The translations under genes were made by a program, and so were the position numbers. DNA of 53,797 nucleotides from Nitrososphaera sp. (lineage in GTDB: Archaea > Thermoproteota > Nitrososphaeria > Nitrososphaerales > Nitrososphaeraceae): positions 1 through 53,797 of the forward strand of contig DATAAU010000171.1 of assembly GCA_036259955.1 (NCBI GenBank), read 5' to 3'. The notes under the pieces are model-generated. The model searched no databases, had not been told where the DNA came from, and worked only from the letters and a program-made list of their open reading frames with translations. The stretch's first letter is position 1, and the number at the start of each line of letters is the position of its first letter. Shown here in pieces: positions 35,780-43,823 of the stretch.

Positions 35780-36283
35780 TTGGCAGCTCTTAAATTCCCA
35801 CACATTCCAGTAACACCGTTGCTTGAGCAATTCCTGCTTCAAGGTGCGACAGAAATAGTAGTAATCGCTGCATCAGTGATAATCGGTCTGCTCATACTGT
35901 GGATAGTTATTTCAATACCTGTGTGGATAGCCGCAAAGATCTTGACAGCTGGAAGAGTTAAGTTCACTCGCGCTATGTTGGTGACGGCTCTTGGCCCTAT
36001 TACCTATGCTGTCGTGTTCTTTATCTCTGCGGCTTTGCTTGCAGCGATAGTTAGAGATCCTACACTGCCTCTTGTAATAGGATTCATTGTTGCGTTCATT
36101 GCCTGGATAGGCATCTTCAAAATTGGATTTGATACTGGCTGGCTAAGAGCACTTGGGATAGCCATCCTTGCAATAATAGTGTTTGCAGTAATTGGATTTA
36201 TAATCAGCTTCTTGATACAATTGATAGTACCTGAAGCTCCGCCTATAACACCAATACCGCCGATCCCACTCCAGCAAGTTTAG
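35780..36283 (+). CDS. Integral membrane protein (about 4 TM)
   Basis: Very hydrophobic, FDTGWLRALGIA motif, Pro-rich tail. Start uncertain. Confidence 0.75.
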   Translation: MAALKFPHIPVTPLLEQFLLQGATEIVVIAASVIIGLLILWIVISIPVWIAAKILTAGRVKFTRAMLVTALGPITYAVVFFISAALLAAIVRDPTLPLVIGFIVAFIAWIGIFKIGFDTGWLRALGIAILAIIVFAVIGFIISFLIQLIVPEAPPITPIPPIPLQQV

Positions 36284-37194
36284 CTCTCCCTGCGGTAACT
36301 GAATTCTCTTTCAGCCCACTCGACAAGGCTAAGTAAATCTTTTGCAACATAGTCTGTGTTCTCTTGTGCATTGGGCTGCAGATCCTGAGTTGTGATGGCC
36401 GCAGTGCGCAACTCGCCCTTGATTTTACCTTTCATTTGCTTTACAGTGGACGATAGGAATCGAAGTGAACCTTCGCCAGAAGAAAAAATACAAACAAGCA
36501 TTAGACCATGCTTGCTACTCCATAAACGTAATAAATATCGCTGAAAATCTATATCAAAAAATGGATCAATCTGTTTGCCTACATCGCCGATATATGTTGA
36601 ATCCCAACCGCGAGCCAACAGTGCTACGGCTGCACTCTTAGCCATAGGGATCCTGTCTTCAGAGCCTGCCACACATACGACTTGGGCGTGCGCTTTTTGT
36701 TCTACTGGCTTGACATTGAACTTTATAAGATCAATAAACTCCATCATCAAATTTACCAGAAATACCCTTTCTGTCTTGTTCAGTTTGCCTCTACTATATA
36801 ACTCGCCTATCGTATTTACCGCAGGTAATACAACATCAGTCAGCACCCTTACGTCGTCAACACTTGAATTCATGACGCTTAGCAAAATTCTTCGACCATG
36901 ATCCTCGTCCCCAGACAGAATTGAACCGATCAGCTTTTGTTGAATCTGTATATAGTTGATTGGAAATTCGATGTCCGCTACTCCAATTTGTGCAAACCAT
37001 ATGTTTACATTGCCTATCTTTTTCTTTTTGAGAAGACCCATTGCAAGCATGACATCGAGATATTTCGTAACGGTCATCCTGTTAAATCCAATCCTGTCTG
37101 CAAGTTCTACTCCCGACAGCCCTGTGCCTCCGGCGCTTTGCAAAGCATCAATTATCTTGTGCTTGATCTCGTCGAGTGTATAGCGCCGGTACAC
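36280..37194 (-). CDS. Winged-HTH regulator with B12-binding-like cap and Rossmann domains
   Basis: LSGVELADRIGFNRMTVTKYL HTH, VVLPAVNTIGELY cap helix and RGWDSTYIG. Confidence 0.75.
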   Translation of the reverse strand: MYRRYTLDEIKHKIIDALQSAGGTGLSGVELADRIGFNRMTVTKYLDVMLAMGLLKKKKIGNVNIWFAQIGVADIEFPINYIQIQQKLIGSILSGDEDHGRRILLSVMNSSVDDVRVLTDVVLPAVNTIGELYSRGKLNKTERVFLVNLMMEFIDLIKFNVKPVEQKAHAQVVCVAGSEDRIPMAKSAAVALLARGWDSTYIGDVGKQIDPFFDIDFQRYLLRLWSSKHGLMLVCIFSSGEGSLRFLSSTVKQMKGKIKGELRTAAITTQDLQPNAQENTDYVAKDLLSLVEWAEREFSYRRES

Positions 37195-37230
37195 ATAACT
37201 TATCCGATCTTATGCAAAATAAAACCCTTT

Positions 37231-37920
37231 TTACCTGTGCTTTTTCTTCGCTATCCTTCTTGAATTTGATATCAAGTCAGTAAGAGCATTGAAGGCTTTT
37301 CCGACTTGCTCCATCTCTACAAGGACTATTGTGTCAGTGTAACAACTGAGGGTGTCTTCGATGTTTATATGTCTCCTAGCTAGCTGGTTATAGAAAGCAA
37401 TAGCGCATCCTGGAGTCTTGATAATATCTTCTGGACTATGCACTATGATAGCTGCTAGGCTATTTTCGATTTCAAGGATATCGTCGTAGGCAAACATCGC
37501 TTTGAAATCTTGAAGCAAAAGATTATCAAAGACAAGGGTAATTGACATTATACTTTCTGATATGCTGATAAAATTACCTGTACTCTGGATCATGGCTTTA
37601 GCAACCTTTTCGATGGTCTTTTTGCTCTTCTTAGCTGAGACCTTTGCTACATCTGTGTTGACGGTTATGGTGCTGGATGCTAATATGGATGCAATAGACT
37701 TTTGCTGTACATTATAACCGTGCTTTGACCGCTTCAAGGCGGTAATTATGCTTTCTATGCTAGTATTTCTGCCAAGCAGAAGGTCTATTTGCGGCTTAAT
37801 GATACGCGCAAGAGCACTGATATTGCAGTAATCACGCTGAAGGGAGTCCTGAAATGAGAGATCGCTGCTGATTGTCTCTCTAACCGCCTCAGTAATTGAT
37901 TTTTGATTGCTGGCCAACAT
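37231..37920 (-). CDS. ACT-domain protein with N-terminal helical domain, putative amino-acid-responsive regulator
   Basis: NISALAR N-domain and ACT motif TPG..LARRHINIEDTLSCYTDT. Divergent from argG. Confidence 0.8.
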   Translation of the reverse strand: MLASNQKSITEAVRETISSDLSFQDSLQRDYCNISALARIIKPQIDLLLGRNTSIESIITALKRSKHGYNVQQKSIASILASSTITVNTDVAKVSAKKSKKTIEKVAKAMIQSTGNFISISESIMSITLVFDNLLLQDFKAMFAYDDILEIENSLAAIIVHSPEDIIKTPGCAIAFYNQLARRHINIEDTLSCYTDTIVLVEMEQVGKAFNALTDLISNSRRIAKKKHR

Positions 37921-37997: not shown

Positions 37998-39236
37998 TTG
38001 GGTAACAATGGCAAAGTTGTTTTGGCTTACTCGGGCGGGCTAGATACTTCAGTTTGTATAAGGTATCTTCAGACATTACACAAGCTAGATGTCATAACAG
38101 TCACTGTTGACTGTGGTCAGCAGGACGACTTTGAAGAAATACAAAGAAAGGCACAAGCAATAGGTGCGATAAAACATATTTACATTGATGCTCGCGAAGA
38201 ATTTGCTAGCAATTTTGTAGTGCCCAGCATAAAGGCTAACGGCCTGTATCAAGGCAAGTATCCACTCGCAACTGCTCTCGCTCGCCCGTTGATCGCTGCA
38301 AAAGCAGTCGAAGTTGCAAACAAAGAAGGAGCAGCTGCAGTAGCTCATGGATGCACGGGCAAAGGTAACGACCAGATTAGGTTCGATGTTACAATGCGTG
38401 CGCTTAACCCAAATCTTAGAATCATTGCTCCAATACGTGACCTCAACCTGACAAGAGATCTAGAAATATCTTTTGCAAGAGAACAAAACATACCAATAAG
38501 CTCAGAGGCAAAGAAATACAGCATTGACATAAACCTTTGGGGAAGAGCTATAGAAGGTGGTAAAATAGAGGAGGCTGACTTTGAACCTCCTGAAGAGGCT
38601 TTTGAATTTATTAATTTTCAGAACGATAAATCTGGTTATATGGAGATCGAATTCGATCAAGGCATACCAATGACTGTAGACGGTGTGGATATGCCTCTCA
38701 ATGATCTGATCCACTACATTAATGATAAGGCTGGAAGGCATGGCGTCGGGATTGTAGACCACATTGAAGACCGCGTAGTAGGAATCAAGTCTCGAGAGGT
38801 ATACGAGGCCCCTGCAGCCGTGGCAATAATTGAGGCTCACAAAGACCTAGAAAAAATGGTACTTACCAAGCATGAGCTTTCGTTCAAACAGATAGTTGAC
38901 AATCAGTGGAGCTGGCTTGCATACTCTGGGCTATGGCAGGATCCTCTACGAGCAGACTTGGATAGGTTTATAGATGCGACACAAAATCGTGTTTCAGGAA
39001 AAGTTAGACTAAAAATGGAAAAGGGATCGCTTAGGGTAGTTGGCAGAGAATCAGAATATTCTCTATACAGAAATGATCTGGCAACATATGCCACAGGTTC
39101 GACCTTTGACCAAAGTCTTGCCAAGGGATTCGTCGAGTTGTGGGGATTACAGTCAGTTATTGCAAACTCCTTGATTGCAGGAGTAGCTACAAATAGAAAA
39201 AACAAAAAGGAGGTAAATAATGAAATCAAAAGTTGA
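37998..39236 (+). CDS. argG: Argininosuccinate synthase
   Basis: LAYSGGLDTS, AHGCTGKGNDQIRF and KSREVYEAP. Confidence 0.97.
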   Translation: MGNNGKVVLAYSGGLDTSVCIRYLQTLHKLDVITVTVDCGQQDDFEEIQRKAQAIGAIKHIYIDAREEFASNFVVPSIKANGLYQGKYPLATALARPLIAAKAVEVANKEGAAAVAHGCTGKGNDQIRFDVTMRALNPNLRIIAPIRDLNLTRDLEISFAREQNIPISSEAKKYSIDINLWGRAIEGGKIEEADFEPPEEAFEFINFQNDKSGYMEIEFDQGIPMTVDGVDMPLNDLIHYINDKAGRHGVGIVDHIEDRVVGIKSREVYEAPAAVAIIEAHKDLEKMVLTKHELSFKQIVDNQWSWLAYSGLWQDPLRADLDRFIDATQNRVSGKVRLKMEKGSLRVVGRESEYSLYRNDLATYATGSTFDQSLAKGFVELWGLQSVIANSLIAGVATNRKNKKEVNNEIKS

Positions 39237-39399
39237 ATGCCAAGAATGCGGGGCCGAAGTAAGCGTTCCAGAGGATGCAGTAGTCGGCGAGATTATAACT
39301 TGCCCCGACTGTGGAGGCGAGTATGAGATAACCTCAAAGACAGAAGGCAACGTAGAGCTGAAGCCCGCTGAAAGAGTAGGCGAAGACTGGGGACAATAA
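39220..39399 (+). CDS. lysW: Amino-group carrier protein LysW/ArgW, 59 aa (not in ORF track)
   Basis: MKSKVECQECG..GEIITCPDCG..VGEDWGQ*. AGGAGGT ribosome-binding site at 39208 and TAATG coupling to lysX. Confidence 0.95.
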   Translation: MKSKVECQECGAEVSVPEDAVVGEIITCPDCGGEYEITSKTEGNVELKPAERVGEDWGQ

Positions 39400-40377: not shown

Positions 40378-41430
40378 ATGAAAGTCGGAGTTGTTGGTGC
40401 TTCCGGGTATGTAGGCGGAGAACTGCTACGACTCCTCGTCACTCATCCAAAGATAGATCTGAGTATGGTCACATCACGGCAGAAGGCCGGAGAGTACGTG
40501 CACCGTGTTCACCCAAGTTTGAAGGGATTTGTTGACCTTACATTCTCTCCCATGGACATGGAAAAGCTAGCGGATAATTGCGATGTTGTATTTACATCGG
40601 TTCCTCATGGCAAGGCAAACAAGATAGTCAAGGACCTGTATGATAGAGGAATGAAAATAATAGACCTATCAGCAGATTTTAGGCTCAAAAATCCCAAGGA
40701 TTATGTGAGGTGGTATGGCTGGGAGCACCCTTTCCCCGAAATGCTAAGCAAATCAGTCTATGGTGTTCCAGAGCTTCATAGGGAAGAAATTAAGAAGGCA
40801 CAATTGGTCTCCTGCCCCGGTTGCATGGCGGTAACATCGCTTCTTGCTCTTACGCCGCTGATCGAGAATAACCTAATAGATACTGATCACGTTGTAGTCG
40901 ACAGCAAAATCGGATCCTCTGGAGCTGGTCAGAAGGCCAATGCAGGTACCCACCATGCGATGCGCTATGGGGTAGTCAGGCCCTACAAGCCTGCAAAACA
41001 CAGGCACACTGGCGAGATCGAACAAGAGCTTTCGCTCATTGCAAAAAAGCAAATTAAAGTCAGCATGAGTCCTCACGCAGTAAACATCGTTAGAGGCATC
41101 CTCACAACAAACCACACGTTTCTAAAGAGACCTGTGGAAGAGCTAGAGGTATGGAAGATGTACCGTAAAATGTACAAACTTGAGCCCTTTGTAAGATTGA
41201 TTCGAGACAAAAAGGGGCTCTATAAGTTTCCAGATCCTAAATTTGTGGTCGGCTCAAACTTTTGCGATGTGGGTTTTGACATAGATGAATACAATCAGAG
41301 AATAGTGGCACTCTCTGCCTCTGACAATTTAATGAAAGGTGCTGCTGGTTCTGCAATACAGAATATGAACGTGATGTTTGGGTATGAGGAAAAAGAAGGA
41401 CTGATGTACACTCCAATGACACCAGTATGA
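40378..41430 (+). CDS. argC: [LysW]-aminoadipyl/glutamyl-phosphate reductase (ArgC/LysY)
   Basis: GASGYVG, IDLSADFR, PGC, GSSGAG, HRH..E and DNLMKGAAG. Confidence 0.95.
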   Translation: MKVGVVGASGYVGGELLRLLVTHPKIDLSMVTSRQKAGEYVHRVHPSLKGFVDLTFSPMDMEKLADNCDVVFTSVPHGKANKIVKDLYDRGMKIIDLSADFRLKNPKDYVRWYGWEHPFPEMLSKSVYGVPELHREEIKKAQLVSCPGCMAVTSLLALTPLIENNLIDTDHVVVDSKIGSSGAGQKANAGTHHAMRYGVVRPYKPAKHRHTGEIEQELSLIAKKQIKVSMSPHAVNIVRGILTTNHTFLKRPVEELEVWKMYRKMYKLEPFVRLIRDKKGLYKFPDPKFVVGSNFCDVGFDIDEYNQRIVALSASDNLMKGAAGSAIQNMNVMFGYEEKEGLMYTPMTPV

Positions 41431-42230
41431 TAGTCATTAAAATAGGCGGAAGTGTTGTAGATGGCCTTCATTCATCTACTTTAGCAGACATAAAGTCTAT
41501 AGCCGAAGAATATAAGCTCATTTTTGTGCATGGTGGAGGCAAAGAGGTTACCTCCACTGCAACTAAGCTTGGAAAGGAACAAAAGTTCATTATGTCACCT
41601 GGTGGTGTACGGAGCCGTTACACTGACAAAGAGACCGCTGAGATTTATACAATGGTCATGTCGGGAAAACTGAACAAGGCAATTGTCCAAATGCTCCTGC
41701 GTAACCATATCAATGCTGTAGGAATTGCTGGAATAGATGGAGGCATCCTAAAAGCGGAGAGAAAGAAGAAGCTTTTGATCATAAACGAAAAAGGAAGAAA
41801 AATGATAATTGAAGGAGGATATACCGGCAAGATAACTTCAGTTGATGTCCGTCTGATAGAAAACCTTGTCAGCACTGGATACGTGCCTGTCATTTCTCCG
41901 ATTGCATTAAGCGAAGACTTTGATTTTCTCAATGTCGATGGCGACAGGGCTGCAGCATACGTTGCAGGCAGCATGAAGGCAGAGAAGGTTATCTTTGTCA
42001 CGGATGTGAATGGTCTCATGTTAAATGGAAAAATTGTCAAATCAATGACTCTAAACGAAGCAAAAAGCGCTCTACCAAAGATAGGGTCAGGTATGGACAA
42101 GAAAGTGCTTGCATGTATCGAGGCACTTGAAATGGGAGTCAAAGAGGCCATCATCGCTTCTGGCCAGGTAGAAAACCCTTTGTCTACTGCAGTGGGTCAT
42201 AACGATTGTACGGTGATTGTTCCGCATTGA
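41427..42230 (+). CDS. argB: [LysW]-aminoadipate/glutamate kinase (ArgB/LysZ)
   Basis: VIKIGG, VHGGG, SRYTD, LNVDGD and GMDKK. Confidence 0.95.
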   Translation: MIVIKIGGSVVDGLHSSTLADIKSIAEEYKLIFVHGGGKEVTSTATKLGKEQKFIMSPGGVRSRYTDKETAEIYTMVMSGKLNKAIVQMLLRNHINAVGIAGIDGGILKAERKKKLLIINEKGRKMIIEGGYTGKITSVDVRLIENLVSTGYVPVISPIALSEDFDFLNVDGDRAAAYVAGSMKAEKVIFVTDVNGLMLNGKIVKSMTLNEAKSALPKIGSGMDKKVLACIEALEMGVKEAIIASGQVENPLSTAVGHNDCTVIVPH

Positions 42231-43408
42231 ATCTCGAAGACCGCTACCTTGCTACTCTTTACCAGAGGTTTCCCATAAACATCGCTAGGGGCAAGGGTGC
42301 AAAAGTGTGGGATGCTGTAGGTAAGGAATACATTGACTGCATGGGGGGATATGGGGTTGCCCTAGTTGGGCATTGCAATGACAGAGTGGTAGATGCTATC
42401 AAAAGACAGGCAGAGCTTCTCATCACAGCCCACATGTCCACATACAATGATACCCGTTTAAGGTTCATGGAAAAGATAGCGTTGGTTGCACCGACACCTT
42501 TGAACAAGATGTTCTTTGCCAACAGCGGTGCCGAATCTGTCGAAGCGGCACTCAAATTTGCAAGGAAACACAGCGGCAAGCATGGTGTCATAGCAATGAA
42601 TGGGGCATATCATGGCAAAACATTTGGCGCGCTTTCTGTCACATACAACGAAAAATACAGAAAGTCTTTCATGCCTTTGCTGGAAGGTGTTAAGTTTGTT
42701 CCTTATAGTGATCCGTCAATGCTGGAAGAGGCTATTGACGATACAATTGGAAGTGTGATTCTTGAACCCATTCAAGGTGAGACTGGCATTATAGTTCCTC
42801 CAGATGACCTTCTTCCAAAGATAAGAGAGATCTGCAATCGGCGCAATCTTGTCCTTATATTTGATGAAATACAGTCCGGACTTGGGAGGACCGGAAAGAT
42901 GTGGGCGGGTCAAAACTGGAACACTACTCCTGACATCATGTGTCTTGCAAAGGGTATAGCTGGTGGAATACCCATGGGGCTTGTCCTAGCTAAACAAGAG
43001 ATAATGGACTCCATGAAACTTGGAGAGCATTCTTCTACCTTTGCTGGAAGCCCCATAGCGTGTGCAGCAGCCATAGCCACGATGGAAGCATTGGTCGACG
43101 ATAAGCTTGTTGACAATGCAGCAAAGATGGGTTTGCGCTTTAGAGAAGGACTTATCCGGCTGAAGGAGAAACACAAGATAATTCGGCAGGTAAGGGGTAT
43201 AGGCATGATGATAGGAGTTGAACTCCGCTTCGATGTCAAAGATATCCTTTTTGACGGAATTCGTCATGGACTATTGCTACTTTATTCTGGAAGAAACATC
43301 CTACGACTACTTCCGCCACTGATGATGGATGAAGCGACGATTTCACGCGTAGTTGATATAATGGATATTATACTAACTGATGAGGAAAAGAGAAAAAATG
43401 TCATCTAA
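42227..43408 (+). CDS. argD: [LysW]-semialdehyde aminotransferase (ArgD/LysJ)
   Basis: NSGAE, EPIQGE, FDEIQSGLGRTG and PLP lysine in LAKG. Start placed at TTG 42227, overlapping the argB stop. Confidence 0.93.
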   Translation: MNLEDRYLATLYQRFPINIARGKGAKVWDAVGKEYIDCMGGYGVALVGHCNDRVVDAIKRQAELLITAHMSTYNDTRLRFMEKIALVAPTPLNKMFFANSGAESVEAALKFARKHSGKHGVIAMNGAYHGKTFGALSVTYNEKYRKSFMPLLEGVKFVPYSDPSMLEEAIDDTIGSVILEPIQGETGIIVPPDDLLPKIREICNRRNLVLIFDEIQSGLGRTGKMWAGQNWNTTPDIMCLAKGIAGGIPMGLVLAKQEIMDSMKLGEHSSTFAGSPIACAAAIATMEALVDDKLVDNAAKMGLRFREGLIRLKEKHKIIRQVRGIGMMIGVELRFDVKDILFDGIRHGLLLLYSGRNILRLLPPLMMDEATISRVVDIMDIILTDEEKRKNVI

Positions 43409-43823
43409 TATAGATGAAATCGATGAAAAGATCATACACATTTTGCAGGACGACTCGCGCCGTGCTTTTGTCAATATTGCCAATGATATCGGTCTTTCTG
43501 AATCTGCGGTTCGGCGAAGAGTAAAGAATCTTGTTGACAGAGCGATCATTAAACGATTTACTATTGAACTTGGGGCCAATGACAAGACAAGCGCTATTAC
43601 GTTGATATCGGTGGCTTCGACGGCAGATACTTCAGCCGTGTCTAACCGACTGATGAAGCTAACTGGTGTCAAAGTAGTCTATGAAATAACCGGCCAATAT
43701 GATATAGCCGCTATAATTGCAGCCCCCGCGATAGTTGATATCAATAGATGTATTGATGATATACGCAAGATAGAGGGCGTGTCTGACACAGACACTGTCA
43801 TAATACTAAAAACAATGCGATAA
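43398..43823 (+). CDS. lysM: Lrp-family regulator LysM
   Basis: IDEIDEKII..LSESAVRRRV HTH and YEITGQYDI RAM domain. Last gene of the LysW cluster. Confidence 0.85.
   Translation: MSSNIDEIDEKIIHILQDDSRRAFVNIANDIGLSESAVRRRVKNLVDRAIIKRFTIELGANDKTSAITLISVASTADTSAVSNRLMKLTGVKVVYEITGQYDIAAIIAAPAIVDINRCIDDIRKIEGVSDTDTVIILKTMR

What the first reader, a model, noticed from the sequence alone, without database searches (positions are those of the whole stretch)
39220..39399. LysW carrier ends in EDWGQ, losing the Glu that carries the substrate
Seen: a 59-aa LysW below the ORF cutoff, with a strong RBS and coupling to lysX, ends GAA GAC TGG GGA CAA TAA (EDWGQ). Established: in Thermus and Sulfolobus, LysX/ArgX ligates aminoadipate or glutamate to the gamma-carboxyl of the C-terminal Glu of EDWGE. 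Gln has no such carboxyl. Inference: the carrier either needs activation by deamidation (for example by a LysK/M20 peptidase, making it a pro-carrier), uses its alpha-carboxyl, or acts as a decoy or pathway-sorting paralog dedicated to the arginine branch, since it follows argG. I recall Q-ending LysW paralogs in other thaumarchaea, but I cannot verify that here and know of no mechanism.
Basis: partly seen in the sequence, partly recalled or inferred. Interest (0 to 1): 0.72.

Follow-up and report, generated by a model that had tools for sequence, protein, structure and literature searches.

The report
Glutamine-capped arginine carrier, no glutamate backup
The small carrier protein on which this soil archaeon builds arginine is encoded with a terminal glutamine where the known chemistry needs glutamate, and many relatives have no glutamate-ended copy at all, so the carrier is likely switched on by an undescribed one-time removal of the amide.

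Summary
Confirmed. The LysW at 39220-39399 ends EDWGQ (CAA TAA), sits between argG and an ArgX-type ligase, and the codon recurs in independent assemblies. It is no decoy: all 14 same-genus genomes have two Gln-ended carriers and no Glu-ended one; five single-contig relatives have only Gln-ended carriers and lack ArgJ and DapA/B/F. It is not arginine-specific: Gln occurs on either paralog, and in the largest sister family it marks the lysine-branch copy. Gln/Glu flips at least 7 times on a 94-genome tree, including a Caldarchaeum-like order. No partner residue tracked it, and Dop, CheD, an EgtC-like amidase, DUF357 and a cDPGS-like gene did not explain it. The ligase keeps its canonical active site. 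Published N. viennensis proteomes detect both carriers; their coverage fits only the N-terminal parts. Best reading (inferred, 0.4): the release hydrolase LysK deamidates the carrier once, as Dop does for Pup; any route to the normal gamma-linkage about 0.65; alpha-carboxyl loading 0.22. Ten paper searches found no description. This scan noted the trait before on other genomes. Decisive: re-search public raw proteomes for the +0.984 Da or loaded tail peptide.

The parts
39220..39399 (+). lysW/argW amino-group carrier protein, 59 aa, two CxxC zinc-ribbon motifs, tail EDWGQ
   Evidence: NF041070 93.3 bits; PF21344
39394..39396 (+). terminal CAA (Gln59), at the position of the substrate-bearing Glu of characterised carriers
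39209..39214 (+). GGAGGT ribosome-binding site 5 nt upstream of the lysW start, inside the end of argG
   Evidence: sequence
37998..39236 (+). argG, argininosuccinate synthase; overlaps the lysW start
   Evidence: NF001770 523.9 bits
39399..40259 (+). LysX/ArgX ATP-grasp ligase, inferred ArgX-type (EFRGA where the lysine-branch paralogs have EFKNT); GSWGR and the other invariant active-site residues intact
   Evidence: (TIGR02144 297 bits)
40378..41430 (+). argC/lysY reductase
   Evidence: TIGR01850 435.9 bits
41427..42230 (+). lysZ/argB [LysW]-aminoadipate/glutamate kinase
   Evidence: NF010662 292.9 bits, cut-off 194
42206..43408 (+). argD/lysJ aminotransferase
   Evidence: TIGR00707 408.4 bits, just under its 410.05 cut-off
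43380..43823 (+). lysM Lrp-type regulator
   Evidence: NF040947 190.5 bits

Best explanation
This gene encodes a LysW/ArgW carrier ending in Gln, which is likely made as an inactive pro-carrier and likely deamidated once to Glu by the pathway's own release hydrolase LysK. LysK normally cuts the amide between the carrier's gamma-carboxyl and finished ornithine or lysine; the Gln side chain is the same amide with ammonia as leaving group. After that step the carrier would cycle in the textbook way: ArgX ligates glutamate to the gamma-carboxyl, LysZ, LysY and LysJ convert it, LysK releases ornithine and returns a Glu-ended carrier. Because the carrier is catalytic, one slow event per molecule would be enough. 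Shown: the Gln codon, its conservation, Gln-only genomes with no other route found, an unchanged ligase site, no accessory gene found. Inferred: deamidation, and LysK as the enzyme.
For: (1) The Gln form must work: single-contig genomes G184, G235, G244 (two carriers, both Q) and G159, G171 (one carrier, Q) have no other LysW and 0 of 5 have ArgJ, DapA, DapB_C or DapF. In genera g74 and g77 the argG-linked copy has decayed and one Gln carrier remains beside two ligases. (2) Only Glu and Gln are tolerated: no intact LysW with another last residue among 37 loci found without the tail or 219 distinct ends (123 E, 96 Q, partly fetched by E/Q patterns). Both CAA (44) and CAG (52) occur. (3) Repeated flips: at least 4 changes on the argG-linked and 7 on the lysine-linked copy (78 genomes); 7 for any-Q on 94 genomes. 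A Caldarchaeum-like order has single Gln carriers in 24 of 68 genomes with a match, mixed even within genus g116. (4) No column of the ligase, LysK, LysZ, LysY or LysJ tracks Q against E across five sister contrasts; R57, K91, K131, G135, G138, D180, R182, D241, E254 and N256 are invariant in 89 ligases after Q carriers and 109 after E carriers. This suggests a latent ability of the core enzymes and an unchanged gamma-carboxyl geometry. (5) No dedicated deamidase found: Dop/PafA 0 of 5, CheD 0 of 5; a small stand-alone Ntn amidase in only one Gln-bearing genome searched, G171. (6) Precedent: Dop, the enzyme that removes Pup from conjugates, also deamidates Gln-ended Pup (PMC8599861, passages). 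(7) In Natrinema ArgW, E54A, which keeps the alpha-carboxyl, gives arginine auxotrophy (PMC10433800, passages).
Against: No biochemistry. LysK is missing from this assembly (84% complete, the whole HCS-lysW-lysX-lysK locus and argH are absent) and is assumed from genus relatives (L091, L114, L225, L228). M20 deacylases normally anchor the leaving amino acid by its carboxylate (recalled), which ammonia lacks. No LysK residue marks Gln lineages, which fits but does not point to LysK. A merely tolerated cap does not explain why family f2 keeps Gln on one copy (178 of 180 genomes) and Glu on the other (175 of 180). The covariation tests are crude, with 1-9 genomes per side. The deamidase search covered named families only; each Q-only genome has at least one further M20 peptidase.
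Confidence: 0.4

Rival explanations
1. The ligase loads the substrate on the alpha-carboxyl of the terminal Gln, as RimK does on ribosomal protein S6; the side chain is only a binding handle.
For: The ligase belongs to the RimK alpha-L-glutamate ligase subfamily (TIGR00768 267 bits). Thermus LysJ and LysK also accept N-acetyl substrates, so downstream enzymes are tolerant of the N-acyl group (PMC12998189, passages). Gln is the same shape as Glu. Needs no extra step and could explain stable retention of Gln.
Against: No ligase or downstream column changes between Q and E lineages, although one enzyme set serves an E and a Q carrier in the same cell. E54A is non-functional in Natrinema. A dispensable side chain should admit Lys, Asp, Gly or Ala; none was seen in intact genes.
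Confidence: 0.22
2. The ligase itself activates the Gln amide: ADP/phosphate-dependent phosphorolysis gives the usual gamma-acyl phosphate and ammonia, so the first loading is a transamidation and LysK then leaves a Glu-ended carrier.
For: Needs no accessory gene and no residue change. With the canonical pocket intact the amide would sit at the nucleotide site (inferred). Dop uses active-site phosphate on Gln-ended Pup (PMC8599861), though in a different fold.
Against: No such activity known to me for ATP-grasp ligases on an amide; not tested.
Confidence: 0.13
3. A separate, unrecognised housekeeping deamidase outside the operon uncaps the carrier.
For: Only named families were tested. A second M20 peptidase of about 460-490 aa is present in 5 of 5 Q-only genomes and GatD in 5 of 5 genomes searched. 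Unchecked notes of this scan report an operon-encoded Ntn amidase with Gln carriers in other phyla.
Against: Dop, CheD, small Ntn amidase, Dph5-DUF357 and a cDPGS-like gene do not track Gln. No shared amidase among 34 unlabelled neighbours scanned, of 66 listed (some of the rest).
Confidence: 0.12
4. Leaky mistranslation: archaea make Gln-tRNA by amidating Glu-tRNA(Gln) with GatDE, and a small share of carriers receives Glu at the Gln codon.
For: GatD is present in 5 of 5 genomes searched; explains why only Gln replaces Glu with no partner change.
Against: Elongation factors discriminate against the misacylated tRNA (recalled); a tiny active fraction would have to support all arginine and lysine synthesis while the inactive majority competes for the enzymes.
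Confidence: 0.05
5. One reading: the Gln copy is inactive or reserved for arginine while a Glu copy does the work.
For: In family f2 almost every genome has one copy of each, so a regulatory role there is not excluded. This assembly is incomplete.
Against: 0 of 14 same-genus genomes have a Glu copy; 27 of 39 family genomes have none; Gln falls on either branch; Q-only genomes lack the alternative routes tested.
Confidence: 0.04

Closest known systems
LysW/ArgW amino-group carrier pathway of Thermus thermophilus, Sulfolobus/Sulfurisphaera, Thermococcus kodakarensis and Natrinema gari (PDB 3vpb, 3wwl, 5k2m)
   Same: Zinc-ribbon carrier with EDWG tail; LysX/ArgX ligase with GSWGR; LysZ, LysY, LysJ in the operon; LysK in genus relatives.
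   Different: All characterised carriers end in Glu, which bears the substrate on its gamma-carboxyl (PMC10433800, PMC9303977, passages). Here the gene encodes Gln, and many genomes have no Glu copy.
Pup/Dop/PafA pupylation of Actinobacteria
   Same: A small carrier encoded with terminal Gln in some species and Glu in others; the releasing enzyme also deamidates the Gln form (PMC8599861, passages).
   Different: Unrelated fold and purpose; no Dop/PafA gene in 5 of 5 genomes searched. A working analogy only.
RimK-family alpha-L-glutamate ligases (RimK, MptN, CofF)
   Same: Same ATP-grasp subfamily as the ligase next door.
   Different: The ligase scores best as LysX (TIGR02144) and sits in a full carrier operon; the linkage it makes on a Gln carrier is untested.

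Membership tests
LysW/ArgW amino-group carrier protein | Small acidic zinc-ribbon domain with two CxxC motifs | tested here: met
   C7, C10, C28, C31 invariant in 40 aligned carriers; PF21344 48.7 bits over 27; NF041070 93.3 over 75, while Thermus-type TIGR01206 is 37.6 under 53.2
LysW/ArgW amino-group carrier protein | C-terminal EDWG recognition motif | tested here: met
LysW/ArgW amino-group carrier protein | Gene-encoded terminal Glu | tested here: not met
   CAA, Gln59; hence filed as a variant, not a canonical member
LysW/ArgW amino-group carrier protein | Operon with ligase, kinase, reductase and aminotransferase | tested here: met
LysW/ArgW amino-group carrier protein | LysK release hydrolase in the genome | tested here: inconclusive
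   not found in G000 (84% complete); present in genus relatives L091, L114, L225, L228
LysW/ArgW amino-group carrier protein | Substrate bound by isopeptide to the gamma-carboxyl of the last residue | not testable with these tools
   needs mass spectrometry or reconstitution
Pup/Dop pupylation | Dop/PafA (PF03136) enzyme | tested here: not met
   0 of 5 single-contig Q-only genomes; control rang in Corynebacterium
Pup/Dop pupylation | Terminal Gln converted to Glu before ligation | not testable with these tools
   inferred by analogy only
RimK-type alpha-glutamate ligation | RimK-subfamily ATP-grasp ligase | tested here: met
   TIGR00768 267.4 bits over 143.4; RimK equivalog NF007764 only 88.6 under 331
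RimK-type alpha-glutamate ligation | Ligation through the alpha-carboxyl of the acceptor's last residue | not testable with these tools
   no diagnostic column found; the structure papers were not held

The most novel reading that the evidence does not exclude
Amino-group carriers have a hidden maturation step: ammonia-oxidising archaea and several other archaeal lineages translate them capped as Gln and a core enzyme uncaps them, giving a second, independent Pup-like Gln-to-Glu switch that gates all arginine and lysine synthesis in some of the most abundant nitrifiers; or else the same ligase fold has switched to alpha-carboxyl loading.
Probability: 0.85. Interest if true: 0.78.

Novelty: new variant of a known kind. 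Interest (0 to 1): 0.7.

Why it matters
The terminal Glu is treated as the indispensable feature of amino-group carrier proteins, and metabolic models of ammonia-oxidising archaea fill arginine and lysine synthesis with the canonical chemistry (PMC6038301, passages). Many of these organisms encode no carrier that can do that chemistry as translated. Either a maturation step or a different linkage is missing from a central pathway of major soil and ocean nitrifiers. It also bears on genome mining, where a Gln-ended carrier could be dismissed as broken. The question can be tested at once with public raw proteomes and a few purified proteins.

Tried and rejected
Sequencing error: rejected. Arginine-branch sorting: rejected. 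Alternative routes in five Q-only genomes: ArgJ, DapA, DapB_C, DapF not found; DapB_N hits were weak (one genome over cut-off); a LysA-like decarboxylase is present in 5 of 5 but scores 248.5 under the 297.9 lysA cut-off in the one tested; an ArgA or GNAT-type acetylase was not tested. Dph5-DUF357 after lysK: DUF357 found in 30 of 32 genomes whatever the ending. cDPGS-like gene in Gln loci of family f23: also in E genome G441, not found in G184, G159, G080, G357. Dop, CheD: 0 of 5 each. Small Ntn amidase, a lead from earlier notes: in 35 and 31 genomes nearly all hits lie in frames of about 390-770 aa; frames under 300 aa only in G171 (Q), G547 and G266 (both E/E). Covariation scans found clade markers only; two weak same-residue columns (LysK 37, LysZ 149) were not consistent across contrasts. 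The Gln pattern hit in G377 is not a LysW. Of 12 non-E/Q pattern hits, 5 were inspected (1 decayed lysW, 3 ammonium transporters, 1 no LysW), 1 is excluded, 6 were not inspected. RNA-run contigs of relatives cover the operon but cannot show expression or the codon. The ESM Atlas did not answer. No structure or complex prediction was run, since a confidence score cannot tell the linkages apart. The taxa of most non-AOA Gln-ended cluster representatives could not be found. Papers not held: PMC5076833, PMC4281745, PMC4858999, PMC5150414, so ligase-carrier contact residues were not read from the structure papers.

Full report
Observation. Window 39220-39399 (+) encodes a 59-aa LysW ending EDWGQ; the last sense codon is CAA at 39394-39396. 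It has a GGAGGT site 5 nt upstream, overlaps argG and is coupled to the ligase gene by a shared base. It passes NF041070 and PF21344, and Q59 aligns with the terminal Glu of all three solved LysW matched. Contigs of two studies carry the same codon. It is the only LysW in this assembly, but the assembly is 84% complete and lacks the whole homocitrate synthase-lysW-lysX-lysK locus and argH. The nearest named relatives are titled Nitrososphaera sp..

Context. The operon is argG-lysW-ligase-argC-lysZ-argD-lysM. The ligase has EFRGA where the paralogs beside homocitrate synthase have EFKNT; this matches the N-to-G, S-to-hydrophobic change that shifts Thermus LysX towards glutamate (PMC12998189, passages), so it is inferred to be ArgX-type and this copy to be the arginine-branch carrier.

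Distribution. In 301 class genomes, 224 carry the EDWGQ-stop pattern and 249 the EDWGE-stop pattern. All 39 sampled genomes of the own family have Gln and 27 have no Glu copy. All 14 of the own genus have two Gln copies and none with Glu. Family f2 (which I take to be Nitrosopumilaceae from genome size and gene order; the label comes from no call) has Gln in 178 and Glu in 175 of 180. Gene maps of 60 fetched regions show the common layout argG-W1-ArgX-argC-argB-argD-lysM-HCS-W2-LysX-lysK, with W1/W2 as E/Q (f2, g23, g30, most g4), Q/Q (own genus and six others), Q/E (g6, g76, G305), E/E (g29, g37, g32, g38, f4, f6, G308) or a single Q (g2, g8, g74, g77). So Gln is not tied to arginine. In g74 and g77 W1 is a decaying remnant. 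Outside the class, of 102 listed matches (86 of 236 matches were not listed) two had a Gln codon: one real LysW in G482, a one-genome family, and one chance hit. A Caldarchaeum-like order (name from the source label of P0287) has Gln in 24 of 68 genomes with a match: g85 13 of 13, g156 2 of 2, g91 7 of 7, g116 2 of 7, each with a single match. Among 149 new representatives of 50% clusters, 123 had the tail motif and 16 of those ended in Gln. FastTree trees need at least 4 changes on W1 and 7 on W2 (78 genomes) and 7 for any-Gln (94 genomes); long branches are present and the direction of change is not established.

The Gln carrier must function. Five single-contig genomes (G184, G235, G244, G159, G171) have only Gln-ended LysW by profile search and lack ArgJ, DapA, DapB_C and DapF, while controls rang. 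An ArgA-type acetylase was not tested. N. viennensis grows on bicarbonate and ammonia (PMC12542715, passages), and its proteomes list both LysW, both ligases and LysK (PMC12542715 supplement file 1, PMC7785015 supplement file 3). I did not have that strain's sequences; that its carriers end in Gln is inferred from the genus count. In PMC7785015 the 57-aa carrier has 66.7% coverage from 3 peptides and the 55-aa carrier 63.6% from 1 peptide. With same-length genus orthologues as stand-ins, these equal 38 and 35 N-terminal residues and cannot include the tail peptide. This fits a modified tail, but acidic terminal peptides are often missed, and a loaded tail would be missed under any mechanism.

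Constraint. Only Glu and Gln were seen in intact genes: 33 Q and 4 E in loci found without using the tail, 96 Q and 123 E among 219 distinct ends (many of those loci were fetched by E/Q patterns, so this count is biased). Within ammonia oxidisers the neighbouring Gly wobble changes 9 and 14 times, the first base of the last codon 3 and 7 times, the second base never.

Mechanism tests. No column of the ligase, LysK, LysZ, LysY or LysJ follows Gln against Glu beyond clade, and ten active-site positions are invariant in 89 ligases after Gln carriers and 109 after Glu carriers. No accessory deamidase emerged: Dop 0 of 5, CheD 0 of 5, DUF357 in 30 of 32 regardless of ending, the cDPGS-like neighbour not shared, a small Ntn amidase in one Gln genome only. 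The simplest reading is a latent ability of the core enzymes. LysK already hydrolyses the gamma-amide of this residue, and Dop shows that a releasing enzyme can also uncap a Gln-ended carrier (PMC8599861, passages). The E54A result in Natrinema (PMC10433800, passages) argues that a free alpha-carboxyl alone is not enough in a canonical system. I give LysK deamidation 0.4, ligase transamidation 0.13, another deamidase 0.12, alpha-carboxyl loading 0.22, mistranslation 0.05, decoy 0.04. Unexplained by the best reading: why f2 keeps Gln on one copy and Glu on the other so stably.

Literature. EDWGQ: 0 papers; amino group carrier protein with glutamine and deamidation: 0. Listings showed none on a Gln-ended LysW. 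Seen as passages: PMC10433800, PMC12998189 (plus reference list), PMC6038301, PMC8599861, PMC9303977, bioRxiv 2021.12.28.474397, bioRxiv 2024.10.14.618325, PMC12542715 and PMC7785015 (both also supplement rows). Horie 2009, Ouchi 2013 and the three JBC structure papers were not read; most subscription papers are outside the library, so a remark in print on this variant is not excluded. bioRxiv supplements were not consulted.

Earlier notes. The scan recorded the trait on other genomes. My Pup analogy was noted, before those look-ups. The lead on an Ntn amidase came from them and was tested here with a negative result for these lineages.

Verdict. Real, conserved and necessary in Gln-only genomes; a new variant of the amino-group carrier system with an untested activation step. 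Interest 0.7.

Noticed in passing
L097:3611-4852, L099:607-1848, L100:3354-4595: A 413-aa ammonium transporter (PF00909, 349 bits for L097) in three genus-g8 genomes ends in GEDWGV, a LysW-like tail. May be chance.
   Followed up: partly
L136, L141-L151 (for example L141:1621-2802): In several other Thermoproteota families a Glu-ended LysW is followed by a 392-400 aa RimK-like ATP-grasp protein only 20-28% identical to LysX.
   Followed up: partly
L255:5896-7110 and other f23 loci: A cyclic-diphosphoglycerate-synthetase-like gene lies inverted between argD and lysK in 9 of 9 Gln loci of family f23; possibly related to the archaeal arginine synthetase (recalled). Also present elsewhere in E genome G441.
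   Followed up: partly
L220:5274-6626, L221:5306-6664: A LysA-like PLP decarboxylase occurs in 5 of 5 genomes that lack DapA, DapB and DapF; substrate unknown.
   Followed up: partly
L096, L102, L103 (genus g8): argG is followed directly by argC: both the first carrier and the ArgX-type ligase are missing from the cluster, leaving one Gln carrier and one ligase there. Whether ArgX lies elsewhere was not checked.
   Followed up: partly
L091:4343-5455 and similar loci: Diphthine synthase is fused to DUF357 across the class and follows lysK in families f1 and f2.
   Followed up: yes
window 36280-37920 (-): An ACT-domain protein and a helix-turn-helix/B12-binding-domain protein lie divergently upstream of argG and are conserved there in many relatives; possible regulators of the operon.
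   Followed up: partly
L007:1548-1730: One Nitrososphaera-titled genome has a Glu-ended argG-linked carrier (GAG) among 33 Gln-ended close relatives, a likely reversion.
   Followed up: no
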